Assembly (NCBI GenBank): GCA_023249675.1
Contig: JAHFCE010000011.1
Location: forward strand, 2,466 to 66,465
Source of the DNA: Elusimicrobiota bacterium
GTDB taxonomy: Bacteria > Elusimicrobiota > Elusimicrobia > UBA1565 > UBA9628
Length of the DNA: 64,000 nt
Direction of reading: 5' to 3'
Shown: piece by piece, positions 7,899 through 59,579 of the stretch
Layout: each line of letters starts with the position of its first letter
How positions within the stretch are numbered: position 1 is the first letter of the stretch
Made by a program: the position numbers and the translations under genes
Notes under the pieces: generated by a model
Seen by the model: only the letters and a program-made list of their open reading frames with translations
Database searches by the model: none
What the model was told of the DNA's origin: nothing

Positions 7899-8689
7899 AG
7901 CGCGGAGGACAGGTCCTCGCTCCGTCGCTGTTCACGCTCGGCAACATGGCGTGCGGCTTCTACGCCCTGCTGTCCTCCGTGCGCGGGGAATTCGTGTCCT
8001 CGGCCACGGCGATCATCGCGGGGATGGTCTTCGACGCGCTGGACGGCCGCGTCGCCCGCCTCGTGCATGGCGAATCCTCCTTCGGCGTCGAGTTCGACTC
8101 GATGGCGGACTTCTTGACCTTCGGCGTGGCTCCAGCGCATATGATGTATGCGTTTATTTTGAAGGACTACGGCGCGTGGGGCTATCCGATGGCCTTCCTG
8201 TTCGCGCTGTGCGGCGGCCTGCGTCTGGCGCGCTTCAACGCGATGGCGCACGGCGGCACGGGTTCGAGATCCCATTTCATGGGGCTGCCGATTCCGGCGG
8301 GCGCGGGCTTTCTGGCCGGCTTCGTCCTCCTCTATCAGAAGATCGAGGAAGGGCGGCCCGGGGGCACGTGGCGGCTCCTCATGGACCAGATTCCGGCCCT
8401 GTACGGCCTGGCTCCGGTCATGGTCATTGCGCTCGCGCTCCTGATGGTCTCGACGATTCCTTACCCGACGTTCAAGCAGCCCGGCGTGCTGCGGCCGAAG
8501 TCGCTGCCCGCGATCCTGATCCTGCTGGGCCTGGGTTGGCTGCTTTTCTTCTACCCGCTGATGATCCTCTTCGTCGTTTTCTTCTTTTACGCCCTGCTGG
8601 GGCCGGTGTCGTGGCTGGCGCGTTGGGCCGGCCGCCTCGTCGGCTGGCTGCCGCCCGCGCCGGCCCACGACTATGGAGAACACTTGTGA
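7880..8689 (+). CDS. pssA: CDP-diacylglycerol--serine O-phosphatidyltransferase
   Basis: PSLFTLGN, DALDGRVAR, FGVEFDSMAD, LRLARFN; adjacent to psd. Confidence 0.92.
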   Translation: MDKQTLKRGGQVLAPSLFTLGNMACGFYALLSSVRGEFVSSATAIIAGMVFDALDGRVARLVHGESSFGVEFDSMADFLTFGVAPAHMMYAFILKDYGAWGYPMAFLFALCGGLRLARFNAMAHGGTGSRSHFMGLPIPAGAGFLAGFVLLYQKIEEGRPGGTWRLLMDQIPALYGLAPVMVIALALLMVSTIPYPTFKQPGVLRPKSLPAILILLGLGWLLFFYPLMILFVVFFFYALLGPVSWLARWAGRLVGWLPPAPAHDYGEHL

Positions 8690-9123
8690 CCAAGCCCGTC
8701 CACGGAATTCTCGCGATGCGCCGCCTCGATCCGGCTGCGACCTTGCCCACCCGGGCGCATGCCGATGACGCGGGCCTCGATTTGTACTCCCTTGAAGACG
8801 CGGAGTTCTTGCCCGGAGAAGGACGGGTCGTGCGCACGGGCGTGGCGATGGCCATTCCGGCGGGCCACGTCGGCCTCGTCTGCGACCGCTCGTCGATGGC
8901 CAAGCGCGGCCTCAAGACCGCGGGCGGCGTGATCGACGCGGGCTACCGCGGCGAAGTCGGCGTCATGCTCTGGAACATCTCGGGCCAGACCCACGGACTC
9001 AAGAAGGGCGAGCGCATCGCTCAGCTCCTCGTGATTCCGATCGCGACGCCGGCTCCCGTCGACTCCGACGATTTGGGCGAGACGGCGCGCGGCGCCGGGG
9101 GCTTCGGCTCGACCGGCAAATAA
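8686..9123 (+). CDS. dut: dUTP diphosphatase
   Basis: AGLDL, DRSSMA, GVIDAGYRGE, RIAQL, RGAGGFGSTG; GTG start overlaps pssA stop. Confidence 0.95.
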   Translation: MTKPVHGILAMRRLDPAATLPTRAHADDAGLDLYSLEDAEFLPGEGRVVRTGVAMAIPAGHVGLVCDRSSMAKRGLKTAGGVIDAGYRGEVGVMLWNISGQTHGLKKGERIAQLLVIPIATPAPVDSDDLGETARGAGGFGSTGK

Positions 9124-9141: not shown

Positions 9142-9258
9142 CGGGGCGGAAACGCGATGTCTGGCGGGGTCGGCGGGATTGACCCGCCTCTAGCGGGACG
9201 CGACCGCAAGAGCTTGTCGCGTCCCTCACGCCCCGCCAGACATCGCGTTTCCGCCCCG
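9142..9258 (+). repeat. three-way-junction palindromic element, copy 1
   Basis: Perfect 28-bp inverted arms (9142-9169 / 9231-9258) enclosing hairpins GGCGGG-attga-CCCGCC and GGGACGCGAC...GTCGCGTCCC. Confidence 0.85.
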
Positions 9259-9313
9259 ACCATCCGAGTTGCAGGCGCTCGCGGTCGAGCCTGCGCCCCC
9301 CGCCTTGCTTAAT

Positions 9314-9432
9314 CGGGCGGAGGAATATGACATCCATCGGGGCGTGAGGGGCGCGACCGGATCTGGAAGGAGCGCCCCGTTAGAGGCGGGTCAATCCCGC
9401 CGACCCCGATGGATGTCATATTCCTCCGTCCG
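9314..9432 (-). repeat. three-way-junction palindromic element, copy 2 (inverted relative to copy 1)
   Basis: 29-bp arms (9314-9342 / 9404-9432, one mismatch); reverse complement carries the same core as copy 1. Confidence 0.85.
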
Positions 9433-9449: not shown

Positions 9450-10130
9450 TCAGCGCAGGTCGATGACCGCGACGCGGCCGTCGGTGCGGAAGGGATAACC
9501 CTTGTCGTTGAAGCCATCGGCGGGCACGCGCGGCGCGGGAAGAATCAGCAGGGTGCGCAGCCGGGGCGAGCGCGACAGCGTGGAAACGACGAAGTCCCGC
9601 TCGCGGTTCGCGTCCGGATCGGGCACGTGCGAGAGGTCGCGCCAGCGCGCGCGCAGGTCGTAGTTGGCCGAGCCCCACCAAAAGTCCCGCCCTCTGCGGT
9701 CGACGGTTCCGGTGCGCCACAGGCGAAAGTGATGCCGCTCCTGCAGGAAGCGCACGGGCAGGGCCCAGTTCATGTCCTGACGGCGTCCGCGCAGGCGGTA
9801 GTCGTTCATCGGCGGGAAGGCGGCGACGGGGCGCCCGGTCAGGAATTCCCGCAGGCCGGCCCAGATCGAGCCGCGCACCGATGTCGGGATCTCGGTCCAG
9901 CCGGCGGAGCGCAGCGCGTCGCGCAAGGCCTTGGGACGGCCGATGAACACGAGGTTGAGGGGATCTCCGGGCAGGCCGAAGCGGCCCTCGTTGCGGCCGG
10001 GCAAGGTCGGCGCGGCCTCATCCCATGTCGAGACCATCGCTGCGGCCGGGGGGAAGACGCGGTCGGGCGCAATCCGGTCGAGGCTCAGCAGCAGGAACGC
10101 GACCGGCAAAAACAGAACGAACTTCTTCAT
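9450..10130 (-). CDS. LssY C-terminal domain protein
   Basis: GDPLNLVF, AGW, GRRQD, RHHFRLW, W.GSANYD, D...ERD and TDG motifs. Confidence 0.8.
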   Translation of the reverse strand: MKKFVLFLPVAFLLLSLDRIAPDRVFPPAAAMVSTWDEAAPTLPGRNEGRFGLPGDPLNLVFIGRPKALRDALRSAGWTEIPTSVRGSIWAGLREFLTGRPVAAFPPMNDYRLRGRRQDMNWALPVRFLQERHHFRLWRTGTVDRRGRDFWWGSANYDLRARWRDLSHVPDPDANRERDFVVSTLSRSPRLRTLLILPAPRVPADGFNDKGYPFRTDGRVAVIDLR

Positions 10131-37527: not shown

Positions 37528-37811
37528 AGCTCGCGCGCGTCATCGGCCGCGTGTTCTGCTCCCGCCAGGAGCCGGGCCTCAACGGCAAGGCGATGCTCTT
37601 GATCCAGCCCCTGCGCTGGGAGGACGAGGCGCCCGTCGGCGATCCGATCGTGGCCGCCGACGCGGTCGGCGCGGGCTCGTCTGAAAAAGTTTTTTGGGTC
37701 GCCTCGCGCGACGCGGCGGTCGCCTTTAAGGATGCGCCGCCGGTGGATGCGGCCGTCGTCGGCATCATGGACGGGCACCAAGTGAAAGATTTTAGGGGAG
37801 GCTCGAAGTGA
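37524..37811 (+). CDS. BMC-P shell pentamer 2
   Basis: MKLARVIGRVFCS, VAADAVGAG, VDAAVVGIMD. Confidence 0.9.
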   Translation: MKLARVIGRVFCSRQEPGLNGKAMLLIQPLRWEDEAPVGDPIVAADAVGAGSSEKVFWVASRDAAVAFKDAPPVDAAVVGIMDGHQVKDFRGGSK

Positions 37812-37855
37812 AGTTATCCACCAATCCGTCGTGCGACGGATTGGTGGATAACTTC
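37810..37855. repeat. perfect 22-bp inverted repeat between BMC-P genes
   Basis: GAAGTTATCCACCAATCCGTCG-tg-CGACGGATTGGTGGATAACTTC. Confidence 0.85.
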
Positions 37856-39173: not shown

Positions 39174-39251
39174 GGTGTCAGGCCTATAGTTACTTGAATT
39201 ACTCGTTGATGGATTCCAAGAAACAATTCAAGTAACTATAGGCCTGACACC
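39174..39251. repeat. GTGTCAGGCCTATA-family palindromic element A
   Basis: Perfect 27-bp arms (39174-39200 / 39225-39251) with 24-nt loop. Confidence 0.9.
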
Positions 39252-52500: not shown

Positions 52501-53871
<1,371 letters not shown>

Positions 53872-59502: not shown

Positions 59503-59579
59503 AGTGTCAGGCCTATACATTCGTCAAATTCTGTTGAATAATAGGCCACACAATTTGACGAATGTATAGGCCTGACACT
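59503..59579. repeat. GTGTCAGGCCTATA-family palindromic element C
   Basis: Perfect 28-bp arms (59503-59530 / 59552-59579) with 21-nt loop. Confidence 0.9.

What the first reader, a model, noticed from the sequence alone, without database searches (positions are those of the whole stretch)
9142..9432. Twin three-way-junction elements: conserved core carried by unrelated long palindromic arms
Seen: two elements of about 118 nt sit in opposite orientation between convergent dut and the LssY-like gene. Both have the core CGGGGTCGGCGGGATTGACCCGCCTCTA(G/A)CGGG(A/G)CGC-[variable loop]-GCG(T/C)CCCTCACGCCCCG. The A/G and T/C differences in the second hairpin are compensatory. The core is closed by 28-29 bp stems whose middles differ between copies (GGAAACGCGATGTCTGG vs GGAGGAATATGACATCCAT), yet each stem is perfectly or nearly perfectly self-complementary. 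A further hairpin (GCAGGC...GCCTGC, about 9271-9294) separates the copies. Inference: structure rather than arm sequence is being preserved. This fits an unknown non-autonomous ssDNA (HUH/REPIN-like) mobile element or an undescribed structured RNA whose arm could act as a variable guide or antisense segment. It is far more elaborate than a bidirectional terminator and has no U-tracts.
Basis: partly seen in the sequence, partly recalled or inferred. Interest (0 to 1): 0.72.

Follow-up and report, generated by a model that had tools for sequence, protein, structure and literature searches.

The report
Y-shaped DNA repeat riding inside transposons
The two hairpin elements are copies of a dispersed repeat of one order of Elusimicrobiota bacteria, predicted to fold into a Y shape; it is present or absent at the same gene ends in related genomes and also sits inside two kinds of transposon, so it is likely a gene-less jumping element whose long arms stay matched, probably because one arm is recopied from the other.

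Summary
The pair is one of three inverted doublets in this genome. A structure model finds the family in 36 of 101 genomes of the order and in 0 of 150 other genomes sampled from the phylum. Nothing reaches an Rfam cut-off.

The conserved part is the small TCAAT-loop hairpin and the junction. Arms drift about as fast as synonymous sites (0.275 vs 0.303), yet 88% of differences are compensated, which favours arm-to-arm copying over an RNA or guide function. G.T and tandem G.A pairs mark one strand as the folded one.

The dut junction is filled in 2 of 19 genomes. No dedicated transposase gene flanks free copies. The same element lies 11-13 nt inside the right end of 8 of 16 related IS1380 elements, inside a recent IS-like miniature element, and between TIRYT (Y1 transposase) terminal repeats.

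Verdict: an undescribed REPIN-like non-autonomous element that hitchhikes in transposon ends. The enzyme moving free doublets is inferred (HUH/Y1), not shown. This scan noted similar architecture in other lineages, but no look-alike sequence.

The parts
8686..9123 (+). dut (dUTPase); its stop codon lies 18 nt before the arm of element 1
   Evidence: Pfam PF00692, E 2e-33; start and stop checked
9142..9258 (-). Y element 1 (117 nt); predicted folded strand is minus, antisense to dut
   Evidence: family strand bias; model R2 95.5 bits
9142..9169 (.). element 1 outer arm (28 nt, ends in GGGG), pairs perfectly with 9231-9258
9172..9188 (-). element 1 hairpin HP1 (6 bp, loop TCAAT on the folded strand): the conserved part of the family
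9195..9225 (-). element 1 hairpin HP2 (10-bp stem, variable loop)
9231..9258 (.). element 1 inner arm
9259..9313 (.). 55-nt spacer; its small hairpin is not significant and is not conserved in the family
   Evidence: z -0.77; spacers vary in length and sequence among 51 doublets
9314..9432 (+). Y element 2 (119 nt), inverted relative to element 1; predicted folded strand is plus, antisense to the LssY-like gene
   Evidence: model R2 78.4 bits
9348..9378 (+). element 2 hairpin HP2 (7-bp stem, partly decayed)
9385..9401 (+). element 2 hairpin HP1 (loop TCAAT)
9450..10130 (-). LssY_C-domain gene; its stop codon lies 17 nt from the arm of element 2
   Evidence: Pfam PF14067, E 6.5e-31

Best explanation
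The pair is one doublet of a dispersed, gene-less repeat family that is present or absent at the same gene junctions in related genomes and is likely a non-autonomous mobile element: the strand carrying the TCAAT loop is predicted to fold into a three-way junction, whose small conserved hairpin would be the signal for a single-strand (HUH/Y1-type) transposase encoded elsewhere, while the long arms drift freely and probably stay complementary because one arm is recopied from the other. Shown: the family, its range, covariation, strand asymmetry, doublet polarity, empty sites, near-neutral arm drift, and copies inside IS1380 right ends, an IS-like miniature element and TIRYT repeat pairs. Inferred: folding in the cell, template switching as the cause of arm matching, and that inverted doublets give each strand a substrate, as in BIME/REPIN doublets. 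Also inferred: copies accumulate just after stop codons or inside transposon ends because these sites tolerate insertion, and some spread came from riding in IS1380 and TIRYT elements. Weakest step: which enzyme moves the free doublets.
For: Family: 6 copies in 3 doublets in this genome; 36 of 101 genomes of the order. Presence/absence: the dut-LssY junction is filled in 2 of 19 genomes holding both genes, and is only 10-56 nt long in 7 of the empty ones. 12 of 33 loci filled in relatives map to short empty junctions here. Two G014 loci lack the doublet in 5 of 5 relatives, one keeping a short scar. Strand-specific fold: among 2862 arm pairs of 159 elements, 2759 are Watson-Crick, 52 G.T and 8 A.C on the TCAAT strand; tandem G.A at the junction occurs 65 times, tandem T.C 0 times. 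51 of 51 doublets have the same polarity. Arm copying: in 106 orthologous pairs, arm divergence is 0.275 vs 0.303 at fourfold sites of the adjacent gene, with 456 of 518 differences compensated. In 1 of 10 copies of the G048 miniature element the core is inverted between its arms. Template switching as a homogeniser of inverted repeats: PMC5941160 passages; spacer inversion: PMC8604942 search listing. REP dimers sit near stop codons, are often heterodimers and can nest in larger palindromes: PMC3733652 passages. A sense gene ends just outside 96 of 143 elements, median 22.5 nt. Y1 enzymes are available in trans in 33 of 38 genomes of the genus. Single elements lie between intact TIRYT-type repeats in 8 loci.
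Against: No Y1 gene is flanked by the element: 0 of 61 loci by model, while 49 of 60 are ordinary TIR-flanked genes. There is no GTAG-type guide, and conservation fades about 12 nt outside the arm, so no sharp end or target duplication could be defined. The same junctions stay filled across many species, which also fits a host function. In IS1380 the folded strand is the mRNA strand, which fits an RNA role. Copies are related by descent, so the counts are not independent, and fourfold sites are partly saturated at this GC content. The single inverted core could be an assembly error. G044 and G043 carry elements but had no Y1 hit (72% and 75% complete).
Confidence: 0.5

Rival explanations
1. 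The Y is a module of the right end of one IS1380 subgroup (a cis signal for transposition or a small RNA behind the transposase gene) that the IS1380 transposase can move on its own. Free singles and doublets would be its offspring, as ssr9 is for ISPpu9.
For: Found at a fixed place, 11-13 nt inside the right inverted repeat and always in transposase sense, in 8 copies from 6 genomes of 2 genera. A core-like copy lies behind a transposase only 37% identical (L401, model E 0.52, not significant). Ten near-identical copies lie in a G048 miniature element whose ends resemble IS1380 ends. Precedent: PMC12288879 abstract.
Against: 8 of 16 members of the same transposase subgroup lack it, including one 89% identical to a carrier; 0 of 20 further loci carry it. 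0 of 155 free copies have the IS right-end motif nearby. This transposase was not found in most genomes rich in free doublets (7 of 37 in the genus), although repeats are often unassembled.
Confidence: 0.2
2. It is a structured RNA element of the host, acting at 3' ends as a barrier to exonucleases, a processing site or a factor-dependent terminator. A doublet would give each convergent transcript one correctly folded copy.
For: G.U-type and tandem G.A pairs lie on one strand. It sits next to stop codons, is in mRNA sense inside IS1380, and is kept at orthologous junctions across species.
Against: Arms change at about the synonymous rate with only 1.8% wobble pairs, unlike slowly co-evolving RNA stems (own knowledge). 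The gene-proximal copy is in the antisense orientation. Doublets also lie between divergent genes (L020, L225, L230). It is absent at the same junction in close relatives. There is no U-tract and no Rfam family.
Confidence: 0.17
3. It is an attC-like folded single-strand site used by the chromosomal integron integrase or another tyrosine recombinase.
For: The folded strand is antisense to the upstream gene and starts close to its stop codon, as for attC (own knowledge). An integron integrase is encoded in this genome (TIGR02249, 427 bits).
Against: No conserved paired RYYYAAC/GTTRRRY boxes. Copies are inverted pairs between housekeeping genes, not direct-repeat cassette arrays. None lies in 20 intI loci. 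intI occurs in 15 of 29 model-positive and 3 of 9 model-negative genomes.
Confidence: 0.05
4. The arm is a variable guide or antisense segment presented by a constant scaffold.
For: Constant core, constant arm length and variable arm sequence.
Against: The arms are sealed by their own complement and have a family consensus. They drift gradually at orthologous loci instead of being replaced. They match nothing else in the genome beyond one 4-mismatch hit, in phages or in plasmids below E 0.3. No effector gene is adjacent.
Confidence: 0.03

Closest known systems
REPINs / BIMEs with RAYT (TnpA-REP) transposases (PMC3116915 and PMC3733652 passages read)
   Same: Non-coding inverted doublets between genes, close to stop codons, often heterodimers, with compensatory changes in long stems, patchy and mostly vertical distribution, and an imperfect strand-specific hairpin.
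   Different: The geometry is inside-out: each unit has its conserved hairpins inside a three-way junction and its variable arms outside. There is no GTAG tag and no Y1 gene flanked by the repeat. Copy numbers are 1-30 per genome, not hundreds.
TIRYT / TIRtron repeats, HuH subclass 2.1 (PMC3733652 passages; PMC6006769 section 20)
   Same: The same genomes hold many TIR-flanked Y1 genes and TIR dimers whose arms also vary symmetrically. Single Y elements sit between such TIRs. The core start GGGG(A/T)CG resembles the GGGGWSAS motif.
   Different: Free Y doublets have no TIR at their ends, and TIR-flanked Y1 genes carry no Y. The motif differs at the seventh base and lies inside the element.
ssr9 module of ISPpu9 (IS110 family; PMC12288879 abstract only)
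   Same: A small structured module lies downstream of a transposase gene in some IS copies and also occurs free elsewhere.
   Different: The host here is IS1380 (DDE), not IS110. No RNA or circle is shown, and free copies form inverted doublets without IS ends.
Integron attC sites (own knowledge)
   Same: Predicted single-strand fold with wobble pairs on the strand antisense to the upstream gene; position after the stop codon.
   Different: No R boxes and no cassette arrays; the conserved part is central, not terminal.

Membership tests
REPIN/BIME-RAYT | two units in inverted orientation forming a doublet in intergenic DNA | tested here: met
   51 of 51 doublets inverted with one polarity; 3 of 3 in this genome
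REPIN/BIME-RAYT | conserved short REP palindromes at the outer ends with the variable part between them | tested here: not met
   conservation is central in each unit; arms and outer flanks vary
REPIN/BIME-RAYT | GTAG/GTGG guide tetranucleotide at the 5' foot of the hairpin | tested here: not met
   HP1 is preceded by GAG/AAG/TAG variants on the folded strand
REPIN/BIME-RAYT | a RAYT gene flanked by the repeat | tested here: not met
   0 of 61 Y1 loci, 61 of the 97 Pfam hits being examined
REPIN/BIME-RAYT | compensatory changes along the hairpin | tested here: met
   31 of 37 pairs; covariation 0.553 vs 0.145 shuffled and at most 0.127 slid
REPIN/BIME-RAYT | cleavage or excision by the Y1 enzyme | not testable with these tools
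   needs biochemistry or raw deep reads
TIRYT miniature element | TIRYT-type terminal inverted repeats at both ends | tested here: not met
   met by 6 of 153 elements in the script plus L203 and L282, not by the window's doublet or the other free copies
IS1380-derived MITE | IS1380 inverted repeat at the ends | tested here: not met
   0 of 155 free copies; present only for the IS-borne copies
IS1380-derived MITE | G048 miniature element ends belong to IS1380 | tested here: inconclusive
   ends and internal motifs resemble the IS1380 3' region, but no matching full element was found
attC site | paired RYYYAAC / GTTRRRY boxes and direct-repeat cassette array | tested here: not met
attC site | fold favoured on the strand antisense to the upstream gene | tested here: met
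Known RNA family (Rfam 15) | score at or above the gathering threshold | tested here: not met
   9 hits at E up to 10, best 35.7 bits vs cut-off 168
Intrinsic terminator | short stem followed by a U-tract | tested here: not met
   none after either element
Retron msr-msd | reverse transcriptase gene directly downstream | tested here: inconclusive
   none recognised by eye among adjacent ORFs; no RT family search was run

The most novel reading that the evidence does not exclude
The Y is a self-propagating single-strand module that parasitises the ends of unrelated transposons (DDE IS1380 and HUH TIRYT) and is read by a protein recognising its junction shape, with arm sequence irrelevant. It would be the first defined cis-acting structure or small RNA of an IS1380 right end, and one member of a wider class of 'constant junction on a self-copying stem' elements that this scan has noted, unchecked, in other phyla.
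Probability: 0.2. Interest if true: 0.78.

Novelty: new variant of a known kind. Interest (0 to 1): 0.5.

Why it matters
It gives a well-sampled natural case (159 copies analysed, orthologous loci, empty sites) in which near-perfect covariation probably comes from DNA copying rather than selection on an RNA. That is a caution for covariation-based RNA discovery and a usable system for measuring template switching. It also supplies a short, strand-defined candidate substrate for two enzyme groups: TIRYT-type Y1 proteins, for which no REP-like substrate was found in PMC6006769, and IS1380 transposases. If the IS1380 reading holds, it points to an unknown cis element in the family that includes ISEcp1 (membership recalled; IS1380 annotation of the homologues).

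Tried and rejected
RNA evidence: no RNA holder was listed. This says nothing about expression. Laying DNA contigs confirmed the stretch in one piece only in the run that may be its source; related strains carry variants, but partner positions were not listed, so compensation at strain level could not be scored.

Viral collections: three exact-pattern scans gave 0 hits. Phage blastn gave none; plasmid blastn gave only short hits at E 0.3-0.9.

A strict pattern suggested 13 carrier genomes and one clade; the better model raised this to 29 of 38, so the clade claim was dropped. One pattern hit (G021) was discarded as chance.

Partner enzyme next to free copies: none recognised in the loci read. 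This was by reading ORFs plus tblastn with RAYT and IntI, not a full Pfam scan. Two doublets 3 kb apart in the single-contig genome flank what looks like an M16 peptidase (name recalled), not a transposase. One element near an IS110 gene (L350) was taken as incidental.

Other leads: L016, where the outer flank is a long inverted copy of the spacer, lies at a contig end and was not used as evidence. The distant IS1380-like gene of this genome has no Y behind it. A crude attC scan was too strict to describe the integron and is not relied on.

Literature: ten searches listed no description of this element or of a structure at IS1380 right ends. The library lacks most subscription papers. ISfinder and supplements were not seen; Figure 9 and Additional files 4-5 of PMC3733652 could hold related TIR repeats.

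Full report
Observation. Both elements are present as described. Element 1 spans 9142-9258 with a perfect 28-bp stem; element 2 spans 9314-9432 with 29 bp and one mismatch; each stem closes 61 nt. Both strands of both elements fold far better than shuffles (z -8.3 to -12.2), whereas the spacer hairpin does not (z -0.77). The neighbours are dut and an LssY_C gene, convergent. Rfam gives nothing near a gathering score.

A family of doublets. The genome (2.6 Mb, 64% GC) holds four more copies, as two further doublets with the same polarity, between pilC-like and uvrC genes and upstream of mgtE; model R1 finds no others. Pattern searches found copies in relatives. In the species-wide scan, 30 of 119 stretches had arms; 28 carry Elusimicrobia/Elusimicrobiota titles and 2 a genus name of that phylum. 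Model R2, built from 48 copies with the three-way structure, hits 36 of 101 genomes of the order: 28 of 37 other genomes of the genus and 7 genomes of 5 further genera. It hits none of 150 other genomes drawn from the phylum. These scans score only the top candidates per genome and miss weak copies; G041, for example, is positive only without filters. All 51 doublets examined have one polarity; 28 pair the two arm types that I distinguished and none pairs two A types.

What is conserved. 31 of 37 modelled pairs change on both sides; the covariation score is 0.553 against 0.145 for shuffles and at most 0.127 for slid partners. The constant part is the junction and the small hairpin HP1. HP2 varies and can be split into two hairpins. 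Of 171 detections I dropped 12 (mis-oriented duplicates, false hits, deleted or over-long copies), leaving 159. Their arms have 2759 of 2862 Watson-Crick pairs. On the strand with the TCAAT loop the rest include 52 G.T against 8 A.C, and the three pairs next to the junction form a tandem G.A in 65 copies against 0 tandem T.C; several HP1 variants also carry a tandem G.A on that strand. So that strand is the predicted folded one. In the window it is the minus strand for element 1 and the plus strand for element 2, each antisense to its nearest gene, in line with the DNA energies. The copies are related, so these counts are not independent trials.

Why the arms match. Near-neutral speed with almost no intermediates is hard to obtain by selection on pairing alone. 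It is what arm-to-arm template switching would give (PMC5941160, passages read). One of ten copies in G048 has its core inverted between the arms, the spacer inversion ascribed to this process in the listing of PMC8604942; an assembly error is not excluded. The arms do not behave as guides.

Mobility. The dut-LssY junction is filled in 2 of 19 genomes with both genes, partly visible in a third at a contig end, and empty in 17, including the genome with the closest LssY. Twelve of 33 loci filled elsewhere map to short empty junctions here. Two G014 loci lack the doublet in 5 of 5 relatives, one retaining a short scar. Against rapid movement, many junctions are filled across several species. A sense gene ends within 107 nt outside 96 of 143 elements (median 22.5 nt), but doublets also lie between divergent genes. 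No sharp end or target duplication emerged.

Partner enzymes. No transposase, nuclease or integrase was recognised beside free doublets. Y1 genes occur in 33 of 38 genomes. Of 60 fetched, 49 have TIR pairs and none has a Y; the genome's own copy is such a TIRtron. Single Y elements do sit between intact TIRs of these types in 8 loci at three junctions, and between decayed TIRs at a fourth.

The unexpected result came from distant copies. A Y lies between the stop codon of an IS1380-family transposase (PF13701) and its right inverted repeat, 11-13 nt inside the repeat and in transposase sense, in 8 copies from 6 genomes of 2 genera, with different but paired arms. It is not universal. It is present in 8 of 16 members of that transposase subgroup, absent from a transposase 89% identical to a carrier, and found in 0 of 20 further loci, although one distant element (L401) has a core-like sequence below significance. 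The tree needs three changes of the label. Free copies lack the IS repeat (0 of 155), and this transposase was found in only 7 of 37 genomes of the genus. G048 has ten near-identical Y copies in a miniature element with IS-like ends. Integron integrase shows no clear association.

Mechanism. I commit to a non-autonomous single-strand element. The folded TCAAT strand would present HP1 at the junction to a Y1/HUH enzyme in trans. Inverted doublets would offer a substrate on either strand. Arms act as a spacer stem and are probably homogenised by template switching. Insertions persist at gene ends and inside transposon ends, which then carry them further. HUH enzymes recognise imperfect subterminal hairpins on single strands (PMC6006769, passages and section 20 read). 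REPIN doublets show compensatory stems (PMC3116915, passages), and REP dimers sit by stop codons and nest in palindromes (PMC3733652, passages). The enzyme assignment is inference only. The main rivals are an IS1380 end module that moves alone, as ssr9 does with ISPpu9 (PMC12288879, abstract only), and a host 3'-end RNA structure.

Novelty. It works like a REPIN/BIME but fails three defining tests, so it is not filed as one. Ten searches of the open literature found no description. The scan's own index has no look-alike sequence but holds unchecked notes on similar architecture in other lineages; these are leads, not support. I rate it a new variant of a known kind, interest 0.5, with a 20% chance that the IS1380/TIRYT hitchhiking reflects a new kind of structure-read module.

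Noticed in passing
window 39174-39251, 52501-52566, 59503-59579; L001:1391-2250: A second palindrome family (GGTGTCAG-type TIR dimers, 15 in the genome) matches the terminal repeats of the genome's single Y1 transposase gene, i.e. a TIRtron with its miniature copies.
   Followed up: yes
L390, L392, L396, L397, L399, L412, L417, L418 versus L391, L393, L395, L398: The roughly 200-nt stretch between stop codon and right repeat of one IS1380 subgroup is a slot filled by different hairpin modules; the Y is one of them.
   Followed up: partly
G048: L342, L346, L351, L356, L370-L375: A recently spread miniature element (four complete copies of about 270-540 bp) with IS-like inverted ends carries a Y 37-38 nt from one end; one of ten copies has the core inverted.
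   Followed up: partly
G000:C16:9854-9950: A tRNA-Pro(GGG) gene is enclosed by a perfect 20-bp inverted repeat that extends its acceptor stem.
   Followed up: no
window about 37810-37855; G000:C13:21303; G000:C24:84750: Palindromes whose arms begin with a TTATCCAC motif resembling a DnaA box (label recalled); the same motif recurs in IS1380 3' regions.
   Followed up: no
   Followed up: partly
L162-L181 (dut-LssY junction): The same junction holds other palindromes in other genomes (a shared short hairpin in five, a TIR dimer in one) or inserted genes: a hot spot for repeats.
   Followed up: partly
L267, L270, L331, L332, L335: Diverged family members have an extra hairpin, giving a four-way junction, while HP1 is kept.
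   Followed up: no
L016:1426-1682: The outer flank is a long perfect inverted copy of the inner spacer, near a contig end; template switch or assembly artefact.
   Followed up: no
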